Assembly (NCBI GenBank): GCA_964617845.1 | Contig: CAZUAR010000003.1 | Coordinates: 56,518 to 69,907, forward strand | Length of the DNA: 13,390 nucleotides | DNA from: an uncultured Kofleriaceae bacterium | GTDB taxonomy: Bacteria > Myxococcota_A > Polyangia > Haliangiales > Haliangiaceae | Direction: 5' to 3' | Shown: one piece after another, positions 321 to 12,612 of the stretch | Position numbering within the stretch: the first letter of the stretch is position 1 | Layout of the letters: each line of letters starts with the position of its first letter | Translations under genes and position numbers: made by a program | Notes under the pieces: model-generated | Database searches by the model: none | The model's input: the letters and a program-made list of their open reading frames with translations, nothing else | What the model was told of the DNA's origin: nothing

Positions 321-1055
321 TTAGCGGCCTTGCGTCATCTTCAGCATCACGAGCGGCGTCTTCGCGATGATGCCGAGCTCGGTGCGCAGGAACGTACCCA
401 GGTTCTCCAGCGACGCGGTGTACGCGAGGTCGTAGAGCAGCTTGATCCGCATGTCGTCGGCGAGCGAGCCCTTGGTCTCGTCGAGCTGCCACGGGTTCTG
501 CAGCGTCGACGCGAGCTTTCCGATCTCCGATCCCTCGGGGATCGAGCCCGTGTAGCCGAGCGAGATCTGCGCGAGGCCCGTGATGCCGGGCTTCACGTCG
601 CGCATGCGCTCCTCGAACAGCGGGATCGCGTAGGAGAGCTGCTGGAGCAGCTCGGGGCGCTCGGGGCGCGGGCCGACGAGCGACATCTTTCCGCGCAACA
701 CGTCCCAGAACTGCGGCAGCTCGTCGAGCCGCGACTTGCGGAGGAACTTGCCGACGCGCGTGATGCGAGGATCATCGGCGCCCGCGACGACGACGCCCGT
801 GAACTTCTCCGCGTCCGGGATCATCGTGCGAAACTTGTGCATCTCGAACTCGTCGAACTCGTAGGTGCGCACGCCGTTCGCGCGCGTGACCTTCTTGAGT
901 GACCCCGCGCGGCGCTGCTTGAACATCACCGGGCCGGGGGAGTCGATGTAGATCGCAGCCGCGATGATTGGCAGGAGCGGCGCGGTGAGCACCATGCCGA
1001 CGGTGGCTCCGAGGATGTCGATCGCACGCTTCGCGATTTGAACGGGTCTTCGCAC
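321..1055 (-). CDS. Polyprenyl-phosphate sugar-1-phosphate transferase (bacterial sugar transferase family, PglC/WbaP C-terminal type); priming glycosyltransferase
   Basis: Seen in sequence. Family motifs are present: one N-terminal hydrophobic helix (ILGATVGMVLTAPLLPIIAAAIYI), then KFRTM, DELPQFWDVLRGKMSLVGPRP and KPGITGLAQI. The 90 residues of the ORF-track frame upstream of this are Arg-rich non-coding-like, so I put the start at the in-frame GTG at 1055-1053 (VRRPVQIAKRAIDILG...). A CTG at 1073 is the alternative. The stop is at 321. Confidence 0.8.
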   Translation of the reverse strand: MRRPVQIAKRAIDILGATVGMVLTAPLLPIIAAAIYIDSPGPVMFKQRRAGSLKKVTRANGVRTYEFDEFEMHKFRTMIPDAEKFTGVVVAGADDPRITRVGKFLRKSRLDELPQFWDVLRGKMSLVGPRPERPELLQQLSYAIPLFEERMRDVKPGITGLAQISLGYTGSIPEGSEIGKLASTLQNPWQLDETKGSLADDMRIKLLYDLAYTASLENLGTFLRTELGIIAKTPLVMLKMTQGR

Positions 1056-1210
1056 GAAGTGGTCTTCATGCAGACGCGAGACCAAGCGCAATTCGCAGGA
1101 GCTCCGCAGGTCATGCCGATGCAGAAGCGCACGTTGCGATCGAATCGCACGGGACGACGTGCGCGAGTGCCTCGAAGGTTCGCGTCGACGCGTGGCACGA
1201 GTGTTGATGT
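1056..1210. promoter_or_regulatory. Divergent intergenic region between the priming transferase gene (minus) and the kinase/STAS-led polysaccharide operon (plus); probable divergent promoters
   Basis: Inference from gene arrangement. It contains a short inverted repeat TGCGAT-N3-ATCGCA at 1135-1149. No promoter consensus could be assigned confidently in this high-GC sequence. Confidence 0.35.
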
Positions 1211-1678
1211 GTGTCCGGCGCGATGGCCGACAAGATCTGGCTGACCGTCCCCGGCGCGTTGCGCTATCGCGCGCTCGCCGTGCGCGTCGTCGCGGAGGCG
1301 GCGCGGTTGGTCTCGGGATCGCCACGCCGCGACGAGAACGATCTGCTCGCGAGCGACGTGCGCGACCCGTTCGATACGGCGGTGGTCAGCGCGTTCATGG
1401 AGATCTTCAACAACGTCGCGATTCACGCGTACCGGCGCGAAGCGACCGGCCGCATCGAGATCTCGATCACCGCCGGAGATCGCGAGATCGTGATCGAGGT
1501 TCTCGATCACGGCAGGCCGTTCGATCCGTCCAAGGTGCCGGCGCTGCCGTCGGAGCTGGACGATGCATCGCTCCCCGAGGGCGGCATGGGCATCCACATC
1601 GCGCGAACGATGCTCGACGACGTCTCGTATCAGCCCGGCCCACCGAACAAGTGGCGACTGTCGAAAGTGAGGACCTGA
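1211..1678 (+). CDS. RsbW/SpoIIAB-like anti-sigma factor / GHKL serine protein kinase (HATPase_c)
   Basis: Seen in sequence. N-box (AFMEIFNNVAIHAY), G1 (VLDHGRPFD) and G2 (EGGMGIHIARTM) boxes of the GHKL ATPase fold are present, and the size (155 aa) is typical of RsbW/SpoIIAB. GTG start at 1211; an ATG at 1220 is the alternative. Stop TGA at 1676-1678. Confidence 0.8.
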   Translation: MSGAMADKIWLTVPGALRYRALAVRVVAEAARLVSGSPRRDENDLLASDVRDPFDTAVVSAFMEIFNNVAIHAYRREATGRIEISITAGDREIVIEVLDHGRPFDPSKVPALPSELDDASLPEGGMGIHIARTMLDDVSYQPGPPNKWRLSKVRT

Positions 1679-1983
1679 TGATGACACCGTATGAAGTTTC
1701 TCGGTCGACCGATGCGACGCGGCTCGTGGTGCGCGGCTCGCTCGACATCAACACCGCGCCGGCGCTCGCCGAGGAGATCGACAAGATCATCGAAGCGAAG
1801 CCGACGAAGGTCGACGTCGATCTGACGCCGCTCGATCTCATCGACAGCTCGGGCGTCGCGGCGCTCGTGAAGCTGTACAAGGGCATTCGCAGCGCCGGCG
1901 GCCGCATCGCGATCTCGGGCGCGCGCGATCAGCCGCTCGCGATCTTCAAGCTGCTGCGCATGGACAAGGTCTTCGACCTCTAG
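1678..1983 (+). CDS. STAS-domain anti-sigma-factor antagonist (SpoIIAA/RsbV-like)
   Basis: Seen in sequence. The 101-aa protein carries the conserved phosphorylatable-serine motif LIDSSGVAALV and the STAS fold pattern. ATG at 1678 overlaps the upstream TGA by 1 nt (TGATG). AAGTGAGGA Shine-Dalgarno 7 nt upstream. Confidence 0.85.
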   Translation: MMTPYEVSRSTDATRLVVRGSLDINTAPALAEEIDKIIEAKPTKVDVDLTPLDLIDSSGVAALVKLYKGIRSAGGRIAISGARDQPLAIFKLLRMDKVFDL

Positions 1984-1989
1984 AACGCC

Positions 1990-3285
1990 ATGCTGCGCGT
2001 TCTCGCGATCACGAAGATCTTCCCCAACGCCGCCGAGCCGCTGTCTGCCCCGTTCAATCGGCAGCAGTTCGCAGCGCTCGCGCGGCACTGCTCCCTCGAG
2101 GTGATGGCCACGATCCCGTGGTTCCCGGGTGCGAGCCTCGTCCACGGCTCGAGCGCGGGAAAGCTCGTCGGTGTTCCCGGCGAGGAGACGATCGACGGCA
2201 TCACCGTCACCCATCCGCGCACGCTCTTCGTGCCGCGCCTCGCCCACGCGACGTGGGGGCCGCTGTACGCGGCGTCGATCGCGCGTGCGGTGATGCGCTA
2301 TCGGGGACGCGTCGACGTCGTGCTCGGCTCGTGGGCATACCCCGACGGGTTCGCGGCCGTGATCGCGGCGCGCATGCTCGGTGTGCCGTGCGTCGTGAAG
2401 CTGCACGGGAGCGACATCAACCAGATCGCGAAGCTGCCGGGTCCTCGCAAGCTGCTCGGGTGGGCGTTGCCGAGGGCCGCGCGCGTCGTCGCGGTGAGCC
2501 GCGCGCTCGCCGACGAGGTCGCGACGCTCGGCGTGCCGCGCGACAAGATCGCGATCGTCATGAACGGCGTCGATGCGTCGCTGTTCCATCCGCGCGATCG
2601 CGCGGGTGCGCGCGTGGAGCTCGGGCTCGACGAGAGGCCGCTCGTCCTGTACGTCGGCAACCTCAAGGCGGACAAGGGCGTCCTCGACCTCGCGAAGGCG
2701 TGGGAGCGCGTCGCCGCGCAGATGCCCGATGCGCGGCTCGCGATCGTCGGCGGTGGTCCCGCCAAGGACGAGCTCGCGGCCGCCGTCGAGCGGTTCGGCG
2801 GCAAGCTCGGCGAAGGTCGAGCGCGCTGTGCGAAGGATGATCGCGTGCTGCTCCTCGGCCCGCGGCCGCTCGCGGAGGTTCCGCTGTGGATGGCCGCGGC
2901 CGATGTCGTCACGCTGCCGAGCCACGCGGAGGGCACGCCCAACGTCGTGCTCGAGGCGCTCGCGTCGGGTAGGCGCGTGGTCGCTACCCGTGTCGGCGGC
3001 ATCCCGGATCTCATCACGCGAGGCGAGCTCGGCGCGCTGGTACCGCCGCGCGATCCCGACGCACTCGCCCGTGCGCTCGCGCTCGCGCTGCGCACACCGT
3101 ACATCCCCGCCACGGTCGCTGCTCTCGGCGCACGGGGTGGTTGGGACGCAAGTGCCTCCGCCCTGCACCAGGTGCTGCTTGGCGCGGCGAGTGCTTCGCA
3201 ACCGGGGACGTCATGGAGCGCCCCTCCCTCTCCCAGCTCGGAGACCGCTGGTACTCGTCCGAGGAGCGCATCACCGCCGCGATGA
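1990..3285 (+). CDS. Glycosyltransferase family 4 (GT-B; Glyco_trans_4 N-domain plus Glycos_transf_1 C-domain)
   Basis: Seen in sequence. N-terminus MLRVLAITKIFPNAAEP is typical of GT4. The C-domain has the EX7E-type region (PSHAEGTPNVVLEALASGRRVVATRVGGIP). ATG at 1990 lies 6 nt after the STAS stop. The last ~25 aa are low-complexity and overlap the next gene, so the exact C-terminus is uncertain. Confidence 0.85.
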   Translation: MLRVLAITKIFPNAAEPLSAPFNRQQFAALARHCSLEVMATIPWFPGASLVHGSSAGKLVGVPGEETIDGITVTHPRTLFVPRLAHATWGPLYAASIARAVMRYRGRVDVVLGSWAYPDGFAAVIAARMLGVPCVVKLHGSDINQIAKLPGPRKLLGWALPRAARVVAVSRALADEVATLGVPRDKIAIVMNGVDASLFHPRDRAGARVELGLDERPLVLYVGNLKADKGVLDLAKAWERVAAQMPDARLAIVGGGPAKDELAAAVERFGGKLGEGRARCAKDDRVLLLGPRPLAEVPLWMAAADVVTLPSHAEGTPNVVLEALASGRRVVATRVGGIPDLITRGELGALVPPRDPDALARALALALRTPYIPATVAALGARGGWDASASALHQVLLGAASASQPGTSWSAPPSPSSETAGTRPRSASPPR

Positions 3286-4328
3286 TCACGGAGCTGCAAC
3301 GCGTGCGCAGGCGCGCGGCGGCTCGGCCGTTCTTGACGCTCTTTCTCGCGGCACTCCTCACCTCGGCGCTCGCGATCGTGATCGTGACCAAGCACCGCAA
3401 GCTCGAGGCCGAGGTCGTCCTCGCGCTCACCGAGGGCACGCTCTCGAGCGACCACTCCGGTCTCGCGGCGCAGGAGCTGCGCGAATACGTCTCGTCGGTC
3501 CTGTTGTCCGACAAGAACGTCGCCGAGGTGATCGTGGATCAGGACCTCTATCGCATCCGCGAGCGCATGGGCATGGCCTACGCCATCACCGAGCTGCGGG
3601 AGCAACTCGAGGTCGACGTGTGGAAGAACACGTTCGTCTACTACCGCGACTCCGAGTCCAACGCGCGCAAGTCCGCGCGCATCGGCCTCACGGTGATCGA
3701 CACCGACCCCGACAAGGCATATGGCATCGCGCGCGCACTGGCTGACATCATGATCCGCACGCACGACGCCGAGCGCTTGAAGCTCACGAGTGCGCTCGCC
3801 GCACAAGTGCAGCTGATGCGCGAGACGGTCGAGTCGGAGCTGGAGAAGCTCGCCCACCGGATCAGCGAGAAGCAGGCGGCGATCGGCATCGCGTACAAGG
3901 ACGGCAAGAACGGCGTCGCGGCGGCGCTGATGGTCGACCTCGCGGATCTCGACGCGCGCCACAAGGACCTCGAGACTCAGCTCTCGCAGATCGCCACGAG
4001 CCGCGACGCCGTCGCCGACCAGATCTCCGCGGCCGGCCTCGACATCACGCTCGAGGTCGTCGCCGAGAAGCGACCGGATCGCCCTGTCACGTCGACGTTC
4101 GCGCTCGTGCTCGTCATGTGCGTCGTCGCGACAGGCGCGCTGATCGCGTCGGCGATGGTCGTCAGCACGTTCGATCCGCGCGTGCATCACGCCGACGACG
4201 TCGCCCGGCTCGGGCTTCCTGTCCTCGGTCACGTTCCCGCTTTCACCGGCGATCGCGTCGGTTCGTTACGCAAGCGCGGCGCACGCCGCAGTAGCTCAGG
4301 GGCAAGACTATGGCACTCGCACCGATAA
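3213..4328 (+). CDS. Polysaccharide co-polymerase-like inner-membrane protein (PCP/Wzz-like; two TM helices flanking a coiled-coil periplasmic domain), paralogue 1
   Basis: Seen in sequence. TM1 is FLTLFLAALLTSALAIVIVT. A roughly 270-aa hydrophilic, helical, Ala/Glu/Leu-rich domain follows. TM2 is FALVLVMCVVATGALIASAMVV. A C-terminal cytoplasmic tail carries DDVARLGLPVLGHVP, which resembles the BY-kinase-activating tail of PCP-2b proteins such as CapA and YwqC. ATG at 3213; a TTG at 3141 is an unlikely alternative. Family assignment rests on topology and the tail motif only. Confidence 0.55.
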   Translation: MERPSLSQLGDRWYSSEERITAAMITELQRVRRRAAARPFLTLFLAALLTSALAIVIVTKHRKLEAEVVLALTEGTLSSDHSGLAAQELREYVSSVLLSDKNVAEVIVDQDLYRIRERMGMAYAITELREQLEVDVWKNTFVYYRDSESNARKSARIGLTVIDTDPDKAYGIARALADIMIRTHDAERLKLTSALAAQVQLMRETVESELEKLAHRISEKQAAIGIAYKDGKNGVAAALMVDLADLDARHKDLETQLSQIATSRDAVADQISAAGLDITLEVVAEKRPDRPVTSTFALVLVMCVVATGALIASAMVVSTFDPRVHHADDVARLGLPVLGHVPAFTGDRVGSLRKRGARRSSSGARLWHSHR

Positions 4329-5818
4329 CTCCTCGCGACAAGCTGCAACGCATCACCGACCTCGCTCGCAAGACGGCGCGGTACTGGTGGATGATCGCTC
4401 TGTTCGCCCTCGTCGGCGGCGCGCTCTCGCTCGCGTTCGCGGTGTTCAAGCCGAAGAACTACCAGTCGTGGTCCACGCTGTTCTATCAGGAGCGAATCCA
4501 GTCGAGCCTGATGTCGCCGAACCGCGAGGAGATGGTCCAGCGCAACATCGGCGATCGCTACCGCGAGCTGTTGCTCGCGCGCTCGCAGCTGATGCAGATC
4601 GTGACCGACCCGGCGCTCGATCCGTTTCCCGACGAGGACGATGTCGAGGTGAAGATCGACGAGCTGCGCAAGGTCATCAAGTTCGAAGCGCGTGGCGCGA
4701 ACGCCTTCCGTATCAACTTCCGCGACACGGATCCGGCGCGCGCGAAGCGAGTGACCGAGAAGCTGACCTCGATGCTGCAGGCCAAGGACGAGGAGCTCCG
4801 CAACGATCAGGCGACGCGCACGGTGAACTTCGCGACCACCCAGAAGGAGGCGGCGGCCAAGGAGCTCGCGAAGAGCGAACAGGCCCTCGCCACCTTCCTC
4901 GCCGCGCACCCCGAGTTCGCCGAGGAGACGAGCCAGGGCAACTCCGAGGGCGCGTCGATCCGCGCCATCCGCGAGCCCAAGACCAAGAAGACCGGTAACA
5001 GCCGCCTCTACGCGCTCGAGCGCCAGCGCCAGCGCATCCAGGCGCGCCTCGACGCGAGCCCCGACGGTCCTCCGGTGCGCATCATCGCGCCGCCGAGCCC
5101 CGAGCGCGTCGCCGCCGAGGCCGCGGCCAACGAGGCACAGCGCCAGCTCACCGCGGCGCAGCGCGAGCTCGACGGTGCACTCAGCCGGTACACGGAGAAG
5201 CACCCCGAGGTGATCAAGGCGCAGGCGAACGTCGCGGCCGCGCAACAGCGCTACCGCACCGCGCAGGCCGCGGTGCCGCCGCTCGTCGAGACCGCCGTCG
5301 CCCCGACGTCCAAGCAGGACCGCGAGAAGCTCGAGAAGCAGCTGGCGCAGCTCGAGGAGCAGATCGCGAACGCGCAGTCGTCCGGCGACAAGAAGGACGC
5401 GTCGCAGACCGACAAGACGACGAACTGGGTCGTGAAGCTCGAGACGGAGCACGCGATCCTTCGCCGCGAGGTCTCCGAGCAACGCGAGCGCGTCGGCTCG
5501 CTCGCCGCGTCGGTGTTCCGCGCGCAGATCGACGCGAGCCAGAAGCTCGCCGAGCAGGGCGGCCGGCTCTCCGTCGTCGATCCGGCGTTCAAGCCCGTGA
5601 AGCCCACCGGCCCCGGCAAGACGATCTTTCTCCTCGCCGGCATGATGCTGTTCCTGACGCTCGGCACGGGGCTCGCGCTCGGCCTCGCGATGATCGACGA
5701 CCGCATCTACCACCGCATCGACCTCGACAACCTCGGTATCGGGGTTCTCGCCGTGATTCCGCCCGCGCAGTCCCTCAAGGGACTGAAGCCGGCGCCGAAG
5801 AAGGAGCAGCGCAAGTGA
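4310..5818 (+). CDS. Polysaccharide co-polymerase, PCP-2b type (Wzz N-terminal domain, long coiled coil, C-terminal TM and basic cytoplasmic tail; no fused kinase domain), paralogue 2
   Basis: Seen in sequence. Wzz-type N-terminus [37 protein letters not shown] (the P-x-Y-x-S-x-S-like pattern after TM1). Extended Q/A/E-rich coiled-coil segment. C-terminal [26 protein letters not shown] followed by [15 protein letters not shown] and a Lys-rich tail. ATG at 4310 overlaps the upstream gene by 19 nt. Confidence 0.8.
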
Positions 5819-6636
5819 CCACGTCGCGACCCAGCCTGACGATGACCGCGATCGGTCTCGGCAACCACAACCCGCGCACCACGCTCACGCGTGGCTCGAT
5901 GTCGGCCGTCGATCCACGCGCCACCGTGGCACTCGCTCCGACCGAGGCGCGTCCCCCCAGCGCGGCCGCGTGCGAGGTGCAGGTGATGCAGCACCAGCTG
6001 CCACGCCACGCACGCTCCGACCGGCGCCTCGCCGTCGCCCTCGCGCCCGACTCGGCGCGCGCCGCCGCGTTCCGCGTGCTGCGCCACCACCTGCTCGAGC
6101 TCGGCAAGCCGCAGTGCGTCGTCGTGACCAGCCCGCAACGCGGCGACGGCAAGACGACGACCGCGATCAACCTCGCGTGCGCACTGTCCGAGTGCGGCCG
6201 TGCGAGGGTGCTCCTCGTCGAAGCGCACCTGCGCCGCCCGCAGCTCGCCGGCGTGTTCGAGTTCGTGCCGCCTCGCTGCTTCGCGGATCAGCTGCTCCTG
6301 CATCGCAAGGATCCGCTGTCGCCGTGGACGCTCGTCGAGATCCCCGAGCTGCACCTGCACGTCGGCGCGATCAACCCGAAGTTCGAGCGCGGCCAGCTCC
6401 TCGACGGCCCCGCGTTCTCCATCGCGATGGAGCGCCTGCGCGTCGCCGGCTACGACCACATCGTCATCGACGCGCCGCCCGTCCTCGGCTCCGCCGACGT
6501 GAACCTGATGGCCGACGCGGCCGACACGGTGCTGCTCGCTCTCCGCGCGCGCCGCTCGACCGCGCGCGACCTCCGCGCGGCGATCGATCAGATCGGCGAG
6601 CGCAAGGTCGGCGGCACGGTCCTGGTCGAGGAGTAG
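5815..6636 (+). CDS. BY-kinase-family P-loop ATPase (CapB/Wze-like) lacking the C-terminal tyrosine cluster
   Basis: Seen in sequence. N-terminal RK helix [11 protein letters not shown]. Walker [21 protein letters not shown] at about 6127-6159. Walker A' is [11 protein letters not shown] at about 6208-6240, where the canonical DxD has become E-A-H. Walker B is HIVIDAPPV. The protein ends at ...[14 protein letters not shown] immediately after the last beta-strand, with no Tyr-rich tail. GTG start at 5815 overlaps the upstream stop (GTGA); the start codon is uncertain, and in-frame ATGs lie downstream. Confidence 0.8.
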
Positions 6637-6652: not shown

Positions 6653-8107
6653 CTAGCGGCGACAGGTCGCGATCTCGATCAGCTCGCGCCGGCTCCGCTC
6701 CCACACGCGCTCGTCGGTCGGCCAACCAGCGACGGGCATCGTGCGAGCGACGACCATCGCGGTCGCCATCGGATCGCACGCCTTCGCGAGCTCGAGCAGC
6801 TCGCGATCCTGCTGCCCGCGCCGCAGGGCCGCGAGTCGAAGCGTCGGACGGCATCCGCCGTCGGCCGGTAGCGCGAGGACGCCGTCGAGGTTGCCGTGAT
6901 CCTCGCCGTCGTCGAAGCTGACGGGGTCGCGGAGGTCGAGCGCGCGGCCCGGCAGCGGCGCGCCCTTGCGGTTGTGGCGGTCGTGCCAGTACAGCGCGTC
7001 CCACACGTACCACTGCGGGATGCCATCGCGATGCATGAGCCAGCCCCATGTCCTCGGACCTGGGGTCTCGGCGTCGAGGATCATCGCGCCCGAGTACGGA
7101 GGAAGTCCGTTGTAGGCCCACGCGCCGCTCCGGGGCGCGGGTCGGAGCTGGATGAATTGATCGACGAGCCCGAGCCACTCCGGTCTGGGCGGTGCAGTGA
7201 CCGCGAAGCGGAACGTGTTCGGTCCACCGCCCGCGGCGCGGATCACCGTGCCGAGCGCGACGACGTCCTGGATGCGCTTCGCGGTCCGGGGCTCGTCGAT
7301 CGGAATCGCGAACGGCACGTGTCCCGTGCCCCTCGTGGCGGCGATCCAGGCACGCACCTCGTCGCCGGCCTTCGCCGGATCGGCGGAGATGACCACCGGC
7401 ACGTCGCGGATGCCCGCGAAGTCGGCCTTGCGGCTGGGCCACCAGTCGATGTGGATGTCGGGGGTGAGCAGCACGCCGTGATCGCGGAACATCGACATGC
7501 ACGCGCGTTCGGCGGCGCTGGGAACCGCGCGCGAGGGCATCGCGCCCTTCGAGGCCCATGCGAGCTCGCGAGGGTCTTCGTAGGCCCACACGCGCGGCGG
7601 ACGGGTCGGGATCGTGACGTCCGCGACGGCGAGCTCGACCGGGTATCGCGTGTCTCCGACGATCAGCGCGCCCTGCAAGCTCCCGATGGCCATCTCGCGT
7701 GGAACGCGAACCTCGACGTACCGCACGTGCGATGGGCTCGATGGCGATGGGCGCGGGATGAGGCCGTCCGCGTACCGCCCCTTCCCCGCGCTCGCGCCGT
7801 ACAGCCCGGGCGTCGAGGGGCGAGCGACCTCGATGGCCTCCACATCGAACACCCGCACGTCGACACCTTCGAGCTCGAAGACGATGGGCGCGTCGTTCGA
7901 TGTGACGACCTGAAGGCCGATCGTCTCGCCGCGCGCCGCGACCAGCGATAGCCGCTCGCCGTCGAACCACGGCGTGACACGCGGGAGCGGATCGCCGATC
8001 CGGTAGCGCGTCGACTCGCCGAGCACCGCGATCGATGGCCCTGGATCGGTCGCCCCGGCGGGATCGCAAGCAGCGAGCGCCAGGGCACAGGCGAGGACGC
8101 GCGACAT
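6653..8107 (-). CDS. Lipoprotein of unknown function (484 aa), candidate polysaccharide-active hydrolase by genomic context only
   Basis: Seen in sequence. ATG at 8107-8105. Lipobox MSRVLACALALAAC|D (LAAC, with +2 Asp). Natural, Trp/Tyr-rich composition (for example WAYNGLPPYSGAMILDAETPGPRTWGWLMHRDGIPQWYVWDALYWHD). The overlapping frames are Arg-rich artefacts. The ORF-track frame upstream of this ATG (to 8344) looks non-coding. I do not recognise a family. Confidence 0.65.
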   Translation of the reverse strand: MSRVLACALALAACDPAGATDPGPSIAVLGESTRYRIGDPLPRVTPWFDGERLSLVAARGETIGLQVVTSNDAPIVFELEGVDVRVFDVEAIEVARPSTPGLYGASAGKGRYADGLIPRPSPSSPSHVRYVEVRVPREMAIGSLQGALIVGDTRYPVELAVADVTIPTRPPRVWAYEDPRELAWASKGAMPSRAVPSAAERACMSMFRDHGVLLTPDIHIDWWPSRKADFAGIRDVPVVISADPAKAGDEVRAWIAATRGTGHVPFAIPIDEPRTAKRIQDVVALGTVIRAAGGGPNTFRFAVTAPPRPEWLGLVDQFIQLRPAPRSGAWAYNGLPPYSGAMILDAETPGPRTWGWLMHRDGIPQWYVWDALYWHDRHNRKGAPLPGRALDLRDPVSFDDGEDHGNLDGVLALPADGGCRPTLRLAALRRGQQDRELLELAKACDPMATAMVVARTMPVAGWPTDERVWERSRRELIEIATCRR

Positions 8108-8162
8108 CGTCCCAGGCGCAGCAAAGCCCGAGCCGGCCCGCAAATCGCAGAGCCACACGCCG

Positions 8163-9470
8163 ATGGCAACGCCAACCCGCGTAGAGACTCGGATCTCGCC
8201 GACGGAGGGCGATCCGTCGAGCGAGCGAGCGCAGAGCGACGCGCGCGCGGGCGCACGTGTGGCCGCGCAGCACGCGAGGGTCGTCGCTCCCGTCGAATCG
8301 CTGCCGATCATCGCGTTCGCGAAGGACTGGCACGAGGATCCCACGTCGAACCATCACGTGCTGCGCGAGCTCGCGAAGACGCGGCGCGTGCTGTGGCTCA
8401 ACTCGCTCGCGACGAGGACGCCGAGCCTCGCGAGCGGTCGCGACCTCGGCAAGATCAAGCGCAAGCTCGTCGAGTTCTCGAAGGGTCCGGTGAACGTCGA
8501 GAACGACCTGTGGGTGTTCTCGCCGCTCGTGCTTCCGCTGCCGCACGAGGCGTGGGCGCGATCGATCAACAAGCAGGTGCTACGCGCGACGATCCGTGGC
8601 CTGCGCTGGAAGCTCGGGATCGACAGGTTCCAGCTGTGGACGTTCCTCCCGAACAGCGCGGACTACGTCGGGATGCTCGGCGAGGAGTCGAGCGTCTACT
8701 ACTGCGTCGACGAGTGGTCGCTGTTCTCGTATCTGGATCGCGAGCAGACGGTCGCGGCCGAGAAGGCGCTGCTCGGCAAGGTCGATGCGGTGTTCGCGAT
8801 CAACCACGCGCTGGCAGAGGCGAAGCGAGGCGTGAACGCGTCGACGTTCGTGAGCCCGCACGGCGTGGATCACGCCCTGTTCGCGAGCGCGCTCGACGAG
8901 GCGACCGTGGTGCCGGCAGACATCGCCGCGATCTCGGGCCCGCGGATCGGGTTCTACGGGACGATCCGCGACTGGGTCGACCTCGAGCTCGTCGCCCATG
9001 TCGCGAAGGCGCGACCCGCGTGGTCGATCGTGTTGCTCGGCCAGGTGCTGTGCGATGCGAGTGCGATCGCCGGGCTGCCGAACGTTCACCTCCTCGGGCA
9101 GAAGCGGCACGACGAGCTGCCCGCGTACTGCAAGGCGTTCGACGTCGGCATCATTCCGTACCGGATCGATGACCGGATGACGTTCGTCAATCCGCTGAAG
9201 CTGCGCGAGTACCTGTCGGCGGGGTTGCCGGTCGTGTCGACGCCGGTGCCCGAGGTCGCGCGGTACCGCGAGTGGTGCCGGATCGCGGCGACGCCACCGG
9301 AGTTCGTCGAGGCGATCGAAGCGGCGCTCGCCGAGTGCAAACCGGCGACGCGCGCCGCGCGAAGCGCCGCGATGAAGAACGAGACGTGGTCGGCGCGCGT
9401 CGCCGACGTGATGCGAACTGTCGACGAGATCAGCCAGAGCAAACAGACCAAGGGAATGAAGGGAACATGA
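8163..9470 (+). CDS. Glycosyltransferase, GT-B fold (GT4/group-1 like)
   Basis: Seen in sequence. C-terminal nucleotide-sugar-binding region GIIPYRIDDRMTFVNPLKLREYLSAGLPVVSTPVPEV and the overall GT-B pattern. Start is uncertain: ATG at 8163 leaves only 55 bp to the divergent lipoprotein gene, a GTG at 8259 is the alternative, and the first ~40 aa are low-complexity. Stop TGA at 9468-9470. Confidence 0.75.
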   Translation: MATPTRVETRISPTEGDPSSERAQSDARAGARVAAQHARVVAPVESLPIIAFAKDWHEDPTSNHHVLRELAKTRRVLWLNSLATRTPSLASGRDLGKIKRKLVEFSKGPVNVENDLWVFSPLVLPLPHEAWARSINKQVLRATIRGLRWKLGIDRFQLWTFLPNSADYVGMLGEESSVYYCVDEWSLFSYLDREQTVAAEKALLGKVDAVFAINHALAEAKRGVNASTFVSPHGVDHALFASALDEATVVPADIAAISGPRIGFYGTIRDWVDLELVAHVAKARPAWSIVLLGQVLCDASAIAGLPNVHLLGQKRHDELPAYCKAFDVGIIPYRIDDRMTFVNPLKLREYLSAGLPVVSTPVPEVARYREWCRIAATPPEFVEAIEAALAECKPATRAARSAAMKNETWSARVADVMRTVDEISQSKQTKGMKGT

Positions 9471-11551
9471 GCACCAAGAAGCTGCGCGCCGGCATGGTCG
9501 GCGCAGGAAACATCTGCGAGTTCCACGTCGCTGCCATCCAGAAGCTGGCGAGCGCGCCCCAGAGCGAGGTCGAGCTGATCGGCGTCGCAGACCTCGACGC
9601 GGAGCGTGCCGCGGCGAACGCCGAGAAGTGGGGCACGCGGGCGTATGCGGATCTGGACGCGCTCGTCGCGGCGGGCGCCAACGTGATCCACGTGCTCACG
9701 CCACCCTCGTCGCACGCGGCGATCGCGCGCGCGGCGCTCGAGCGTAGATGCCACGTGCTCGTCGAGAAGCCGATCACCGAGGACGCCGAAGAAGCACACG
9801 CACTCGGCGAGCTGGCGGCGAAGAAGGGGCTGACGATCAGCTGCAACCACTCGCTGCTGTTCGACCCGCAGATCGTGCGTGCGCTCGACATGGTCAAGGC
9901 TGGCAAGCTCGGCGAGATCGTCGGCGTCGACATCCTGCGCGGAAGCGAGTACCCGCCGTACGAGGGCGGGCCGCTGCCGCCGTGGTACCGCGACGCGGGC
10001 TATCCGTTCCGCGACATCGGCGTGCACTGCCTCTATCTGATCCAGGAGCTGCTCGGGCCGATCACCAACGTCGACGCGAAGTGGCGCTCGCTCGGCGGCG
10101 ATCCGAACCTCGCGTTCGACGAGTGGCGCGCGCTCGTCGCGTGCAAGCGCGGCCTCGGGCAGCTGCAGATCACCTACAACACGAAGCCGATGCAGTCGCA
10201 GCTGATCATCCACGGCACCAAGGGCGTGCTGCGCGTCGATCTGTTCGCGATGTTCCACGGCAAGCGCGCGTCGACGCCGCTGCCCAAGGCGGCCGAGCGC
10301 TTGATCAACGCGTTCACCGATTCGCTGCAGCCGCTCGTCGACGTTCCGGTGAACGTCGTGAAGTTCGTGCGCAAGCAGGTGCAGTCGTATCAGGGCCTGC
10401 GCGACCTCGTCGCCGACTTCTACGCGCGGCTGCTCGGCAACAAGGAGCCGGCGGTCTCCGTCGACGACGCGGCCAACGTCGTCGCGTGGGTCGAGAAGGT
10501 CGCGCGCGCGGCCGACGCGGATCACGCGCGGAACCTGTCGCGGTTCCAGACGTCGGATCGGATCCCGTTCGTCGTGACCGGTGCGTCGGGGTCGCTGGGC
10601 AAGGCGGTCGTGAACCGCTTGCTCGCCGACGGACATCGCGTGCGCGTGTTCCAGCGCAAGATCCCCGCGCAGGCGCGCGAGGGCGTCGAGTACGTGTTCG
10701 GCAACCTCGGCGATCCGAAGGCGGTCGACAAGGCGATCCGCGGCGCCGAGGTCGTCATCCATTGCGGCGCGGCGATGAAGGGCGGCTGGCCGGAGCACAA
10801 GGGCGGCACCGTCGTCGGCACGCAGAACGTGATCGATGCGTGCAAGAAGCACGAGGTGCGGCAGCTCGTGCACATCTCGTCGATGTCGGTCGTCGATTGG
10901 GCCGGCAGCGCCGGGACCACCGTCGGCGAAGGCGCGGCGCTCGAGCCTCGCCCCGACGAGCGCGGCGCGTACACCCGCGCGAAGCTCGAGGCCGAGAAGC
11001 TCGTGCGCGAGGCAGCGGCGGGCGGCTTCCCCGCGGTGATCCTGCGCCCCGGGCAGATCTTCGGCGGCGGGATCCCGCTGATCAACGGCGCGGTCGCGCG
11101 CAACGCCGGCGGACGCTGGCTCGTCCTGGGCGACGGAACGATCGAGCTACCGTTGATCTATATCGACGATGTCGTCGACGCGATCATGCGCTCGGTGCAG
11201 CTGCGTCTCGTCAGCGGCGAGGTGATCCAGCTGATCGATCCCGAGAAGCTCACGCAGGCCGACGTGCTCGCGCTCGCCGGCGAGAACAAGCCGCAGCTCA
11301 AGGTGCCGCGCTCCGTCGTGTTCGCGCTCGGCAAGCTCAGCGAGCTGCCGCTCGGTGCGCTCGGCAAGCCGAGCCCGATCGCGCTGTACCGCCTGCAGTC
11401 GGCCCTCTCGCGCATGCACTACGGCAGCGACGTCGCCAAGAACGTCCTCGGCTGGGCGCCGCGCGTCGGTGTTCGCGAGGGCATTCGGCGCGTGACCGGG
11501 GCGGCGCCACGCGGCAGCGCGACACCCCCACTGCGCGTCGCGGCGCCTTGA
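9467..11551 (+). CDS. Fusion protein: N-terminal Gfo/Idh/MocA-family NAD(P)-dependent oxidoreductase plus C-terminal extended-SDR NAD-dependent epimerase/dehydratase-like domain (694 aa); putative nucleotide-sugar modifying enzyme
   Basis: Seen in sequence. ATG at 9467 overlaps the upstream stop (ATGA). Gfo/Idh/MocA Rossmann region MVGAGNICEFHVAAI and LVEKP at 9491 onward. A second Rossmann motif VVTGASGSLGKAVVNRLLADGHRVRVF at about 10566-10640, with the SDR catalytic pattern S (HISSMS) and YTRAK (YxxxK). The upstream 65 codons of the ORF-track frame are Arg-rich and non-coding-like. Confidence 0.8.
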   Translation: MSTKKLRAGMVGAGNICEFHVAAIQKLASAPQSEVELIGVADLDAERAAANAEKWGTRAYADLDALVAAGANVIHVLTPPSSHAAIARAALERRCHVLVEKPITEDAEEAHALGELAAKKGLTISCNHSLLFDPQIVRALDMVKAGKLGEIVGVDILRGSEYPPYEGGPLPPWYRDAGYPFRDIGVHCLYLIQELLGPITNVDAKWRSLGGDPNLAFDEWRALVACKRGLGQLQITYNTKPMQSQLIIHGTKGVLRVDLFAMFHGKRASTPLPKAAERLINAFTDSLQPLVDVPVNVVKFVRKQVQSYQGLRDLVADFYARLLGNKEPAVSVDDAANVVAWVEKVARAADADHARNLSRFQTSDRIPFVVTGASGSLGKAVVNRLLADGHRVRVFQRKIPAQAREGVEYVFGNLGDPKAVDKAIRGAEVVIHCGAAMKGGWPEHKGGTVVGTQNVIDACKKHEVRQLVHISSMSVVDWAGSAGTTVGEGAALEPRPDERGAYTRAKLEAEKLVREAAAGGFPAVILRPGQIFGGGIPLINGAVARNAGGRWLVLGDGTIELPLIYIDDVVDAIMRSVQLRLVSGEVIQLIDPEKLTQADVLALAGENKPQLKVPRSVVFALGKLSELPLGALGKPSPIALYRLQSALSRMHYGSDVAKNVLGWAPRVGVREGIRRVTGAAPRGSATPPLRVAAP

Positions 11552-12612
11552 TGCGCGCGGCGATGCGTGACGAGGTCCTCGCGTCGCGCGTGCTGCGCGG
11601 CGCCGTGATCCTCGCCGCGCTCGCATGCGCGGCGGCCGCGCGGGCCGACACGATCGTCACCGTGCAGCTGTCGCCGGACGGCCAGCAGCTCGCGCAGCAG
11701 CTCGGCGTCACGCCCGAGCAGCTCGCCGCGCAGGTGACGCGCGCGGTCGACGACGCGTACCAGACGGCGAACATCGAGGAGTTCCTCGAGTCGTTCGTCG
11801 ACGCGACGTCGTTCTCGTCGCGCGGCATCGGTGTCGACTACGCCTCGCAGCCGACGGGCTTCATCGCGGGCTTCGCGGTCAACCTCGCCGCCGCGGGCGA
11901 CCAGGAGCTGCGCGCCGACGAGCGCCCGACGGCGGGCCTCGCCGCGAACGTCTCGGTGCTCGTCGGGATGAACCTCGCCGAGTGGAAGCTGTCGCGTTGG
12001 ACGATCTTCGCGAACGGGTTCTATCGCAACGCGGAGCTCGAGCGCCTCGACGGCACGATCCTCAGCGCGGGCGCTCACGTGCAGTACACGATCATCCCCG
12101 CGCCCGCGGACGGCGGCACCGGGACGTTCGTGCGCTGGATCGGCCTCGCGGCGACGAGCGGCCTCGAGCTCACGCGCTGGTCGCTCGGCACGGGCTCCGA
12201 CACGCTGTCCACGGACTTCGACGTCGGCAGCGGCAACAACACCGCGCACGTCGACGTCGACTCGACAGGACAGCTCGATCTGCGCTCGCAGGCGATCACG
12301 GTGCCGCTCGAAGCGACCACCGGCCTGCGCGTCATGTGGCTCGCGACGCTCTACGCCGGCGTCGGTGTCGACTTCACGCTCGGCAACGCCGACGTCACCG
12401 CGAACATGAACGGCATCGCGCGCGCCGACGACGGCCGCGAGCTCGGCACGGTCGCCATCACCGGCGAGGGCTACGCGAACGGATCGCCCGCGACGCTGCG
12501 CGCGCTCGTCGGGCTGCAGCTGAACCTGTGGAAGCTGAAGCTGTTCTCGCAGCTCAACGCATCGCAGTCGCCCGCGGTGAGCGTCGCGTTCGGTCTCAAG
12601 TTCGTGCAGTAG
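11551..12612 (+). CDS. Secreted beta-rich protein, putative outer-membrane beta-barrel (candidate polysaccharide-secretion porin by context)
   Basis: Seen in sequence. ATG at 11551 overlaps the upstream TGA by 1 nt (TGATG); a second in-frame ATG sits at 11563. Signal peptide RVLRGAVILAALACAAAARA|DT. Many short amphipathic strands rich in W/Y/F (for example RWTIFANGFY, FVRWIGLAATSGLELTRWSLG, LRVMWLATLYAGVGVDFTLG). The C-terminus is AVSVAFGLKFVQ, with alternating hydrophobics and F at -3. Only the 3' third of the 954-aa ORF-track frame is real; the upstream part is an alternate frame of the fusion gene. Confidence 0.5.
   Translation: MRAAMRDEVLASRVLRGAVILAALACAAAARADTIVTVQLSPDGQQLAQQLGVTPEQLAAQVTRAVDDAYQTANIEEFLESFVDATSFSSRGIGVDYASQPTGFIAGFAVNLAAAGDQELRADERPTAGLAANVSVLVGMNLAEWKLSRWTIFANGFYRNAELERLDGTILSAGAHVQYTIIPAPADGGTGTFVRWIGLAATSGLELTRWSLGTGSDTLSTDFDVGSGNNTAHVDVDSTGQLDLRSQAITVPLEATTGLRVMWLATLYAGVGVDFTLGNADVTANMNGIARADDGRELGTVAITGEGYANGSPATLRALVGLQLNLWKLKLFSQLNASQSPAVSVAFGLKFVQ

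What the first reader, a model, noticed from the sequence alone, without database searches (positions are those of the whole stretch)
3213..5818. Two tandem PCP-2b-like co-polymerase paralogues, each with a kinase-docking C-terminal tail, and only one BY-kinase-like partner
Both membrane proteins have the two-TM, periplasmic coiled-coil topology. After TM2, both carry the (D/E)xxxLG(L/I)(P/G)VL(G/A)x(V/I)P motif that in CapA/YwqC-type PCPs activates the cognate BY-kinase: DDVARLGLPVLGHVP in paralogue 1 and [15 protein letters not shown] in paralogue 2. Paralogue 2 has a clear Wzz N-domain. Paralogue 1 is more divergent. Two adjacent, differently diverged PCPs feeding one tail-less BY-kinase homologue suggests a hetero-oligomeric co-polymerase ring, or two chain-length modes selected by the regulatory module.
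Basis: partly seen in the sequence, partly recalled or inferred. Interest (0 to 1): 0.58.

Follow-up and report, generated by a model that had tools for sequence, protein, structure and literature searches.

The report
Two co-polymerases sharing one tail-less kinase-like ATPase
A myxobacterial sugar-polymer locus encodes two related membrane "co-polymerase" proteins, one short and one long, followed by a single kinase-like protein that lacks its tyrosine tail; the trio is conserved across a whole bacterial lineage and is an undescribed variant of a known export machine, not a new kind of system.

Summary
3213-4328 (P1, 371 aa) and 4310-5818 (P2, 502 aa) are real genes that overlap by 19 nt. 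Each has two TM helices, a periplasmic alpha/beta base with a helical hairpin, and a cytoplasmic tail after TM2. P1 gets no Pfam Wzz/GNVR hit, but it is a true co-polymerase (PCP):
- Its profile aligns with the P2 profile (97.6-99.3% probability).
- Its AF2 model matches only Wzc, WzzE, KpsE, WzzB and FepE.
- The best solved-structure match of its family profile is the CapA fragment that activates the CapB kinase.

P2 resembles Wzc and GumC. The downstream gene (5815-6636) belongs to the BY-kinase family. Walker A and B are intact, DxD is replaced by ExH, and the protein ends right after the last strand; 0 of 70 relatives have a C-terminal Tyr.

P1-P2-kinase is a fixed trio in about 70 species-level genomes (MAGs) of Kofleriaceae and related Polyangia. 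It also occurs in a distant locus that lacks the RsbW/STAS module.

P1's tail is its most conserved part and keeps the equivalent of CapA Phe221; P2's tail does not. My best reading is a three-part PCP-2 complex that works without tyrosine phosphorylation. A mixed P1/P2 ring remains untested.

This is a new variant of a known kind, of moderate interest.

The parts
3213..4328 (+). P1: short polysaccharide co-polymerase paralogue (371 aa; database call 3282-4328, 348 aa). About 240 periplasmic residues, similar in size to Wzz or CapA.
   Evidence: Conserved in 226 database proteins and 78 genome loci. hhalign against the P2 family gives 97.6-99.3% probability. TIGR03007 matches the C-terminal half at 1.8e-9. 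The AF2 model (pLDDT 75) has only PCPs as top Foldseek hits. GC3 is 0.89 in frame.
3330..3386 (+). P1 TM1 (residues 40-58)
   Evidence: Kyte-Doolittle peak 2.67; helix 39-59 in the model.
4107..4163 (+). P1 TM2 (residues 299-317), preceded by the Pro-rich EKRPDRP (4065-4085)
   Evidence: Kyte-Doolittle peak 2.57; helix 295-319 in the model; motif coordinates.
4170..4268 (+). P1 cytoplasmic tail FDPRVHHADDVARLGLPVLGHVPAF-TGDRVGSL. It is the CapA-like helix-strand docking element, including Phe344 (equivalent to CapA Phe221).
   Evidence: Best solved-structure hit of the family profile is the CapA1 C-terminal fragment in 3BFV/2VED/4JLV (E 0.015). It is the most conserved part of P1 (0.84 versus 0.46-0.61). 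F344 is present in 73 of 75 sequences. The role of CapA F221 is from PMC2422856.
4310..4328 (+). 19-nt overlap of the P1 stop region with the P2 start, with AGGGG 7 nt upstream of the ATG. This implies translational coupling.
   Evidence: Sequence read directly. The overlap is exactly 19 nt in 55 of 70 loci, and the genes overlap in 63 of 70.
4310..5818 (+). P2: long PCP-2-type co-polymerase (502 aa, about 390 periplasmic residues). It resembles Wzc and GumC, and NCBI names it 'GumC family protein'.
   Evidence: TIGR03007 4.5e-41 over residues 22-487. Pfam Wzz and GNVR hits are sub-threshold. The exact database copy is P0274. The AF2 model (pLDDT 71) has Wzc as its top seven Foldseek hits.
4391..4447 (+). 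P2 TM1 (residues 28-46)
   Evidence: helix 26-46 in the model.
5624..5680 (+). P2 TM2 (residues 439-457), preceded by the Pro-rich [14 protein letters not shown] (5579-5620)
5693..5767 (+). P2 cytoplasmic tail [25 protein letters not shown]. It is a docking element like the Wzc linker, with Ala (never an aromatic residue) at the CapA Phe221 position.
   Evidence: Aligns with Wzc residues 395-478, which include GIESPEQLEEIGINVYASIP. Column counts are. hhalign pairs it with the P1 tail.
5815..6636 (+). KIN: stand-alone P-loop protein of the BY-kinase family (273 aa; the N-terminal ~50 residues are poorly conserved). Walker A is at 6130-6159, Walker A' ([11 protein letters not shown]) at 6208-6240, Walker B at 6457-6480. 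It ends at GGTVLVEE (6610-6633) with no Tyr cluster.
   Evidence: TIGR03018 2.5e-22 and TIGR01007 3.7e-17. Best solved relatives are VpsO, CapB, BceF, Etk and Wzc. Motif and Tyr counts over 70 relatives are.
1223..1983 (+). Context: RsbW-like Ser kinase (1223-1678) and STAS antagonist (1678-1983, with a DSSG motif). This is the 'regulatory module' of the finding.
   Evidence: Pfam and NCBIfam hits. It is syntenic in nearly all loci but absent from L085.
1990..3285 (+). Context: GT4 glycosyltransferase. Its 3' end overlaps P1 by 73 nt.
321..1091 (-). Context: polyprenyl-phosphate glycosyl-phosphotransferase (priming enzyme), transcribed divergently.
   Evidence: PF02397 4e-49; TIGR03025 3e-61.

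Best explanation
**What is there (shown).** The interval encodes two paralogous polysaccharide co-polymerases whose genes overlap, so their translation is probably coupled.
- P1 is short, about the size of Wzz or CapA.
- P2 is long, about the size of Wzc or GumC.
- They are followed by one stand-alone P-loop protein of the BY-kinase family. It keeps Walker A and B but has lost the C-terminal tyrosine cluster, the second Asp of the DxD (Walker A') motif and the Glu of ExxRxxR.
- The three genes form one conserved module in Kofleriaceae and related Polyangia.

**How it most likely works (inferred).** They probably build a single three-part PCP-2 complex in the inner membrane that does not depend on tyrosine autophosphorylation.
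- The cytoplasmic P-loop protein docks on the helix-strand tails that follow TM2, as CapB docks on CapA and EcpK on EpsV.
- P1 is the main coupling subunit. Its tail is the most conserved part of the protein, is nearly identical to the CapA activator and keeps the Phe that caps the nucleotide in CapA/CapB.
- P2 supplies the tall periplasmic part that works with the polymerase and the outer-membrane export step.
- Assembly and disassembly would be driven by nucleotide state or by binding and unbinding, not by phosphorylation of a Tyr tail.
For: **Both genes are real**
- Protein-level conservation across 74 (P1) and 72 (P2) loci, with stable lengths.
- GC3 is 0.89 (P1) and 0.94 (P2) in frame.

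**They are PCPs and paralogues**
- hhalign E 1.3e-19 (global), 6.4e-15 and 3.1e-12 (N-terminal domain).
- P1 hits the P2-like gene of L084 directly at E 9e-6.
- NCBIfam TIGR03007 hits both.
- Foldseek top hits are all PCPs.

**The tails are docking elements**
- P1 family profile versus CapA C-terminal fragment.
- P2 versus the Wzc TM2 linker.
- In CapA, that fragment forms helix aA and strand bA on CapB, and F221A strongly lowers kinase activity (PMC2422856).

**The tails differ**
- F344 is present in 73 of 75 P1 sequences; the equivalent P2 column is Ala or variable.
- P1's tail scores 0.84 conservation against 0.46-0.61 for the rest of P1.
- The same pattern holds in the distant locus L085.

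**The kinase-like protein**
-. No Tyr in the last 25 residues in 70 of 70 relatives. Walker A' is ExH or ExN.

**The trio is a module**
- The order P1-P2-KIN holds in every sufficiently long locus.
- It survives inversion of the neighbouring block (L055, L063) and transfer to another sugar locus (L085).
- The P1/P2 overlap is exactly 19 nt in 55 of 70 loci.

**Precedent**
- PCP-2 proteins paired with BY pseudokinases that work without phosphorylation: EcpK/EpsV and HfsB/HfsA (PMC12004946).
Against: - No interaction was tested.
- Both tails carry the same helix-strand element. In CapAB this element occupies one site per kinase monomer, so P1 and P2 may compete rather than co-assemble.
- The kinase-like protein stops about where CapB has the adenine-contacting N211/R212. 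I extrapolated this from the numbering in the alignment together; it is not a residue-level alignment. The Phe-capping role of P1 may therefore not carry over.
- No Wzx, Wzy or OPX gene lies within 8-10 kb in three diverged loci. The pathway type is inferred only from the priming transferase and the PCPs.
- All relatives are uncultured MAGs, so no phenotype is known.
Confidence: 0.55

Rival explanations
1. P1 and P2 form two separate homo-oligomeric co-polymerase rings. These compete for the single P-loop protein through mutually exclusive tail docking, giving two polymer-length or export modes.
For: Both tails carry the same helix-strand element, and in CapAB this fills one site per kinase monomer. 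The periplasmic domains differ greatly in height, about 240 versus 390 residues. Precedents exist: the Wzz paralogues behind the modal O-antigen lengths of Salmonella (Wzz_ST and Wzz_fepE; abstract listed), and PssP/PssP2, which act on one EPS.
Against: A fixed 19-nt overlap in 55 of 70 loci implies roughly equal co-expression rather than alternative use. The two genes are never found apart in the loci examined. No second polymerase or exporter is nearby.
Confidence: 0.2
2. P1 is not a co-polymerase in function. It is a CapA-like membrane adaptor whose only job is to anchor or activate the P-loop protein. P2 does all the periplasmic work, and its tail is a vestige of a split Wzc.
For: P1's periplasmic part evolves fast (0.46-0.60) while its tail is nearly invariant (0.84). 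P2 is evenly conserved. Only P1 keeps the Phe221 equivalent.
Against: P2's tail is also strongly conserved (0.80; D463, D464, R465, Y467, V479, L480 and P484 are nearly invariant), which argues against a vestige. P1 keeps conserved base-domain motifs (SARIG, DxDPD) and the full PCP fold.
Confidence: 0.15
3. The P-loop protein is still an active tyrosine kinase that phosphorylates targets other than its own tail, for example the conserved Tyr467 just after P2's TM2, or a glycosyltransferase.
For: Walker A (GDGKTT) and Walker B (IVIDAPP) are intact. Y467 of P2 is Tyr in 70 of 73 sequences. BY-kinases are known to phosphorylate other proteins; CapO and Ugd are mentioned in PMC2422856.
Against: DxD, which chelates the Mg2+ waters in CapB, is ExH or ExN throughout the family. 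ExxRxxR has lost its Glu. No phosphotyrosine phosphatase is in the window.
Confidence: 0.08
4. P1 is an unrelated periplasmic helical protein (LapA/Tol-like or chemoreceptor-like), or 3213-4328 is not translated. This is the refutation case named by the reader.
For: Single-sequence Pfam gives no Wzz or GNVR hit for P1, and only 2 of 31 relatives hit Wzz.
Against: Profile-profile homology with P2, the TIGR03007 hit, a PCP-only list of top fold matches, strong protein-level conservation and in-frame GC3.
Confidence: 0.01

Closest known systems
CapA/CapB of Staphylococcus aureus (PCP-2b plus stand-alone BY-kinase; 3BFV, 2VED, 4JLV)
   Same: The transmembrane modulator and the cytoplasmic P-loop protein are separate. 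P1's tail (FD.R.HD.DDV.RLGLPVLGHVP.F) aligns with the CapA activator fragment [26 protein letters not shown], including Phe221.
   Different: Here there are two modulators for one P-loop protein. That protein has no Tyr cluster and ExH in place of DxD. The host is Gram-negative, and one modulator has a long periplasmic domain. P1's tail continues about 27 residues beyond the CapA end (GD.VGSL plus a basic stretch).
EpsV/EcpK (Myxococcus xanthus) and HfsA/HfsB (Caulobacter crescentus): two-part PCP-2 with a BY pseudokinase (PMC12004946)
   Same: A stand-alone BYK-like protein without a Tyr tail, proposed to act by binding the PCP C-terminus rather than by phosphorylation. The setting is myxobacterial.
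   Different: EcpK lacks all Walker motifs, whereas this protein keeps Walker A and B. Those systems have one PCP and this one has two. Here the genes are adjacent and overlapping, whereas epsV and ecpK are not neighbours.
XrtA/PEP-CTERM-type chain-length determinant and tyrosine autokinase (TIGR03007 / TIGR03018); EpsF/EpsG (TIGR03017 / TIGR03029)
   Same: These are the best-scoring curated families for P2 (4.5e-41), P1 (1.8e-9, C-terminal half) and the kinase-like protein (2.5e-22). The PCP and kinase are also split in a Gram-negative host.
   Different: All scores are far below the curated cut-offs (140.6 vs 278.85; 36.4 vs 278.85; 79.2 vs 230.65 bits). No exosortase is in the window. The kinase-like protein here has no Tyr at its C-terminus.
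PssP and PssP2 of Rhizobium leguminosarum (PMC4182512)
   Same: Two PCPs act on the same exopolysaccharide. The paper's results section reports that PssP2 interacts with PssP, PssT and PssC.
   Different: The pssP and pssP2 genes lie in different chromosomal regions. They are not an overlapping pair sharing one stand-alone kinase-like protein.
Wzc of E. coli (PCP-2a; 7NHR, 9R62-9R6B)
   Same: P2's fold and its TM2-linker sequence match Wzc best. P2 followed by the kinase-like gene looks like a Wzc split just after strand beta-1.
   Different: The proteins are split here. There is no Tyr cluster and no phosphatase, and an extra short PCP is encoded upstream.

Membership tests
Polysaccharide co-polymerase (PCP / Wzz superfamily): P1 | Two TM helices flanking a periplasmic domain, with both termini cytoplasmic | tested here: met
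   TM helices 40-58 and 299-317; helices 39-59 and 295-319 in the model.
Polysaccharide co-polymerase (PCP / Wzz superfamily): P1 | Alpha/beta base domain plus a long antiparallel helical hairpin | tested here: met
   AF2 model at pLDDT 75 with strands 64-74, 132-138, 154-163 and 278-286 and helices 166-229 and 233-261. The top 50 Foldseek PDB hits listed are all Wzc, WzzE, KpsE, WzzB or FepE; best E 4.3e-6, probability 0.99-1.00.
Polysaccharide co-polymerase (PCP / Wzz superfamily): P1 | Match to Pfam Wzz (PF02706) or GNVR (PF13807) at the gathering score | tested here: not met
   No hit for the window protein. Only 2 of 31 relatives hit Wzz, best E 2e-5. Homology shows only at profile level: hhalign against P2 at 97.6-99.3% and TIGR03007 at 1.8e-9.
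Polysaccharide co-polymerase (PCP / Wzz superfamily): P1 | Pro-rich segment just before TM2 | tested here: met
   E.RP.RP at residues 285-291, with R290 invariant and P288 and P291 nearly invariant.
Polysaccharide co-polymerase (PCP / Wzz superfamily): P2 | Topology, fold and sequence match to PCP-2 | tested here: met
   TM helices 28-46 and 439-457. TIGR03007 4.5e-41, full length but below its cut-off. Pfam Wzz and GNVR are sub-threshold. The top seven Foldseek hits are Wzc. NCBI name is 'GumC family protein'.
PCP-2b (modulator of a separate BY-kinase): P1 and P2 | Short cytoplasmic C-terminal extension forming the helix-strand element that docks on the kinase | tested here: met
   By sequence homology only. 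P1 family versus the CapA C-terminal fragment, E 0.015 and the top hit. P2 versus the Wzc TM2 linker. The models show helices 327-333 (P1) and 469-475 (P2) followed by a low-confidence tail.
PCP-2b (modulator of a separate BY-kinase): P1 and P2 | Physical binding to, and stimulation of, the adjacent kinase | not testable with these tools
PCP (function) | Controls polymer chain length or export in a Wzx/Wzy-dependent pathway | not testable with these tools
   Only a priming transferase and glycosyltransferases are in the locus. No Wzx, Wzy or OPX lies within 8-10 kb in L002, L004 or L085.
BY-kinase (bacterial tyrosine autokinase): 5815-6636 | [quoted passage not shown] | tested here: met
   G(D/E)GKTT in 59 of 70 by regular expression; hhhD(A/T)PP in 56 of 70. 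Window sequence: [10 protein letters not shown] and HIVIDAPP.
BY-kinase (bacterial tyrosine autokinase): 5815-6636 | Walker A' motif hhhhDxDxR | tested here: not met
   VLLVEAHLR in the window and ExH or ExN across the family. It aligns with TLIVDGDMR of CapB.
BY-kinase (bacterial tyrosine autokinase): 5815-6636 | C-terminal tyrosine cluster (autophosphorylation sites) | tested here: not met
   0 of 70 relatives have any Tyr in the last 25 residues, and the proteins end ...AGTVLVE. The same holds in distant L085.
BY-kinase (bacterial tyrosine autokinase): 5815-6636 | ExxRxxR ring-contact motif | tested here: not met
   AAFRVLR aligns with EKFRGIR of CapB; the Glu is replaced by Ala.
BY pseudokinase (EcpK / HfsB type) | BYK fold lacking both the Walker motifs and the Tyr tail | tested here: not met
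   The Tyr tail is absent, but Walker A and B are retained. This protein is intermediate between a BY-kinase and EcpK.
XrtA/PEP-CTERM EPS system (TIGR03007 / TIGR03018) | Score above the curated cut-off, and an exosortase locus | tested here: not met
   140.6 vs 278.85 bits, 36.4 vs 278.85 bits and 79.2 vs 230.65 bits. No exosortase was found among the window's ORFs scanned.

The most novel reading that the evidence does not exclude
P1 and P2 co-assemble into one pseudo-symmetric mixed ring with two periplasmic tiers: a short Wzz-like tier facing the polymerase and a tall Wzc-like tier reaching the outer-membrane exporter. This ring sits on a ring of P-loop proteins that cycle by nucleotide state instead of Tyr phosphorylation. 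P1 tails (with Phe344) support the nucleotide-bound state and P2 tails the empty state, so tail exchange replaces the kinase/phosphatase cycle. The neighbouring RsbW/STAS/PP2C partner switch would gate this exchange.
Probability: 0.2. Interest if true: 0.65.

Novelty: new variant of a known kind. Interest (0 to 1): 0.45.

Why it matters
PCP-2 co-polymerases are thought to work by cycling between oligomeric states, with a tyrosine kinase setting the state. BY pseudokinase partners (EcpK, HfsB) were recognised only recently, and how they drive that cycle is an open question.

This trio splits the machine differently. The nearly invariant CapA-like docking tail sits on a short, fast-evolving PCP. 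The long periplasmic domain sits on a second PCP. The P-loop partner still has ATP-binding motifs but no phospho-acceptor tail. That makes it a convenient system for separating 'coupling to the cytoplasmic ATPase' from 'periplasmic co-polymerase function', and for asking whether nucleotide state can replace phosphorylation.

There is also a practical gain. The named copies of P1 relatives that I saw are labelled 'hypothetical protein'. The family has 193 cluster representatives at E<=1e-30 and 877 at E<=1e-3, and it can now be annotated as PCP-like. In addition, the database start of P1 in this genome cuts off a conserved N-terminus.

Tried and rejected
- **Pfam on P1 alone and on 31 relatives.** Almost no Wzz or GNVR signal. 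Taken alone this would wrongly suggest an unrelated family; profile and fold comparisons overturned it.
- **BLASTP of P1 against P2.** Only TM2 plus the tail aligned (E 1e-4), which is not enough to call them paralogues.
- **AF2 of a chimera.** I built P1 tail + kinase-like protein + linker + P2 tail with a 27-row paired alignment, to see which tail docks.
- **Mapping CapB N211/R212 onto the C-terminus.** I searched solved structures with only the last 84 residues, but the alignments stop before the final strand. The statement about N211/R212 therefore rests on extrapolated numbering.
- **Search for Wzx, Wzy or OPX neighbours.** The Pfam annotations of three loci and a hydropathy scan of unannotated neighbours found none.
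- **Literature searches for a described tandem PCP-PCP-kinase arrangement.** These found only unlinked pairs: PssP/PssP2, and XssK/Sll0923 in Synechocystis.
- **Start at 3282.** I considered the database call with its ATGA overlap and rejected it in favour of 3213.
- **Coevolution between tails and the kinase-like protein.** Not attempted, because the tails are almost invariant across about 66 triplets and there would be no statistical power.

Full report
**Setting.** The window has about 70% G+C and comes from a Kofleriaceae MAG. Exact copies of both proteins exist in public data: P0001, and P0274 labelled 'MAG: GumC family protein [Kofleriaceae bacterium]'. The gene order is:
- priming glycosyl-phosphotransferase (321-1091, minus strand);
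- RsbW-like kinase (1223-1678);
- STAS protein (1678-1983);
- GT4 (1990-3285);
- P1 (3213-4328);
- P2 (4310-5818);
- BY-kinase-like protein, here called KIN (5815-6636);
- lipoprotein-like gene (6653-8107/8344, minus strand);
- GT1 (8163-9470);
- GFO/IDH/MocA-epimerase fusion (9464-11551);
- secreted protein (11560-12612);
- part of an FAD protein (minus strand).

- Both ORFs are open at the stated coordinates and have the GC3 signature of coding sequence: 0.89 (P1) and 0.94 (P2) in frame.
- Public gene calls start P1 at 3282, in an ATGA overlap with the GT4 stop. The 23 extra residues carry a GDxWY(E/S)SE motif conserved in relatives that are only about 50% identical. GC3 switches to the P1 frame by about 3180. 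A GGGGA lies 4 nt upstream.
- P2's ATG lies 19 nt inside P1 and is preceded by AGGGG. KIN's GTG overlaps the P2 stop (GTGA) and is preceded by AAGGAG.
- Hydropathy gives two TM segments in each protein: P1 40-58 and 299-317, P2 28-46 and 439-457.

**Is P1 a co-polymerase?** A single-sequence search says little. There is no Wzz or GNVR hit for P1, and only 2 of 31 relatives hit Wzz. BLASTP against P2 aligns only TM2 and the tail. Three independent lines settle the question.
1. NCBIfam TIGR03007 (a chain-length determinant family) matches P1 residues 188-351 at 1.8e-9 and matches P2 full-length at 4.5e-41.
2. Profile-profile comparison of the two families gives 99.3% probability globally (E 1.3e-19). 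For TM1 plus the base domain alone it gives 98.4% and 97.6% (E 6.4e-15 and 3.1e-12). In a distant locus, the P1 query even hits the P2-like gene directly (E 9e-6).
3. The AF2 model of P1 (pLDDT 75) has the PCP layout, and every top Foldseek hit is a PCP: Wzc, WzzE, KpsE, WzzB or FepE.

P2's model (pLDDT 71) matches Wzc in its top seven hits. P1 has about 240 periplasmic residues, similar to Wzz. P2 has about 390, with extra helices at the distal end, similar to Wzc.

**The tails.**
- Searching solved structures with the P1 family profile returns, as best hit, the CapA1 C-terminal fragment fused to CapB in 3BFV/2VED/4JLV. FDsrvhdtdDvaR-lglPvLGhvPgf aligns with [26 protein letters not shown] (E 0.015).
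- In that structure the fragment forms helix aA and strand bA, which completes the CapB sheet. Phe221 stacks on the adenine, and F221A strongly lowers kinase activity (PMC2422856).
- The aligned P1 residue, Phe344, is present in 73 of 75 relatives. F320, D321, H325, D329, R332, G339 and P342 are invariant.
- The tail is the most conserved part of P1: 0.84, against 0.46-0.61 elsewhere.
- P2's tail aligns with the TM2-to-kinase linker of Wzc and is also conserved (0.80). At the Phe221 position it has Ala or variable residues and never an aromatic one.
- The two tails therefore belong to the same kind of element but are not equivalent.

**The partner.**
- KIN's best families are TIGR03018, TIGR01007 and TIGR03029. 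Its best solved relatives are the kinase domains of VpsO, CapB, BceF, Etk and Wzc.
- Walker A (GDGKTT) and Walker B (IVIDAPP) are kept.
- Walker A' is VLLVE(A/T)H(L/V)R rather than DxD. ExxRxxR is AAFRVLR.
- The protein ends at ...GTVLVE, with no Tyr in the last 25 residues in 70 of 70 relatives.
- Extrapolating the CapB numbering, the chain stops about where CapB has the adenine-contacting N211/R212. I could not align this residue by residue.
- It is therefore not a canonical BY-kinase. It is also not an EcpK-type pseudokinase, which lacks all Walker motifs. I treat it as a BY-kinase-like ATP-binding protein without a phospho-acceptor.

**Conservation.**
- One scan of species-representative genomes returned 78 loci. 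Nearly all are labelled Kofleriaceae, Haliangiales, Myxococcales, Myxococcota, Deltaproteobacteria or Proteobacteria MAGs; one is labelled Acidobacteriota.
- In every locus with enough sequence, the order is P1-P2-KIN. It is usually preceded by RsbW-STAS-GT4 and the divergent priming transferase.
- Identity to the window is 32-80% for P1, 40-90% for P2 and 50-87% for KIN.
- The trio stays together where the RsbW-STAS-GT4 block is inverted (L055, L063).
- The P1/P2 overlap is exactly 19 nt in 55 of 70 loci.
- An exhaustive profile search finds 193 cluster representatives at E<=1e-30 and 877 at E<=1e-3. The named ones are 'hypothetical protein' from Myxococcales or Polyangia.
- Two distant members were inspected. 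L084 has epimerase-P1-P2. L085 has GT4, GT4, deacetylase, a GH123-like gene, P1, P2 and KIN, with no RsbW/STAS. L085 keeps the Phe in the P1 tail, has none in the P2 tail, and has a tail-less KIN with VEAN.
- The trio, not the regulatory module, is the evolutionary unit.

**Interpretation.**
- Shown: two paralogous PCPs, conserved overlapping genes (which imply translational coupling), docking-type tails on both, one tail-less BYK-like protein, and strict co-inheritance.
- Inferred: the three form one complex in which the P-loop protein binds the tails, as in CapA/CapB and as proposed for EpsV/EcpK and HfsA/HfsB. Regulation would not depend on Tyr phosphorylation.
- The uneven conservation pattern and Phe344 suggest a division of labour: P1 couples to the ATPase and P2 does the periplasmic work.
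- Whether P1 and P2 mix in one ring, sit side by side or compete for the same docking site could not be tested.
The module itself is genuine: a DSSG motif in the STAS protein, and PAS and HAMP-SpoIIE genes just upstream in relatives. Partner-switch control of polysaccharide synthesis has precedents in SypE/SypA and HenR/All4160.

**Novelty.**
- Already known: split PCP/BY-kinase pairs, BY pseudokinase partners, and pairs of PCPs acting on one polymer (PssP/PssP2).
- My literature searches found no description of an overlapping PCP-PCP pair sharing one tail-less BYK-like protein. Those searches cover only the held library.
- I classify it as a new variant of a known kind, of moderate interest.

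Noticed in passing
window 1223-1983; L007 1388-6235; L004 209-5106: A complete partner-switching set lies next to the sugar genes: RsbW-like kinase, a STAS protein with a DSSG phospho-site motif, and, just upstream in relatives, a PAS protein, a HAMP-SpoIIE (PP2C) phosphatase and a large TPR protein. No sigma factor is in the locus. This resembles SypE/SypA of Vibrio fischeri and HenR/All4160 of Anabaena, where the output is polysaccharide synthesis rather than transcription.
   Followed up: partly
window 6653-8344 (-), probable start 8107: A lipoprotein-like gene (MSRVLACALALAAC|D lipobox) has no Pfam or NCBIfam hit. It is 35% identical (E 2e-74) to the gene directly upstream of the P1-like gene in the distant locus L085, which carries a weak GH123_cat hit. 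A glycoside-hydrolase-like protein may therefore travel with the trio.
   Followed up: partly
window 3213-3285: The GT4 reading frame runs 73 nt into P1. GC3 there follows the P1 frame, not the GT4 frame. Public gene calls start P1 at 3282 and so cut off a conserved 23-residue N-terminus (GDxWYxSE).
   Followed up: yes
window 9464-11551: A single 695-aa fusion of a GFO/IDH/MocA oxidoreductase (similar to UDP-GlcNAc 3-dehydrogenase, 2.4e-29) with an SDR-type NAD-dependent epimerase/dehydratase domain. It is syntenic in many relatives and in some is present only in part.
   Followed up: no
window 11560-12612: A secreted 350-aa protein with a signal peptide and a sub-threshold match to the Lsa36 surface-(lipo)protein family (2.3e-23; 82.8 vs 90 bits), plus a weak DUF6588 hit. 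It is present in only some of the related loci. It could be an outer-membrane component of the pathway.
   Followed up: partly
L086 8001-9368: A 455-aa protein has an N-terminal FHA domain fused to a P1-like region (family profile E about 6.5e-40 for P0239, the representative of its cluster). It has no P2-like or kinase-like gene beside it and sits next to beta-helix and TPR proteins.
   Followed up: no
L002, L004, L085 (8-10 kb on each side of the trio): No flippase-like or polymerase-like multi-TM protein and no Poly_export (OPX) gene is near the trio in three diverged loci. The rest of the presumed Wzx/Wzy pathway must be encoded elsewhere, or the pathway is not a standard one.
   Followed up: partly
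window 4185-4187, 4230-4232 (P1 H325, H340); 6226-6228 (KIN H138): P1's tail has invariant or nearly invariant histidines (RVHD, GHVP). A histidine also replaces the second Asp of the kinase DxD motif across the family. I have no explanation; a shared metal or pH-sensitive contact is conceivable.
   Followed up: no
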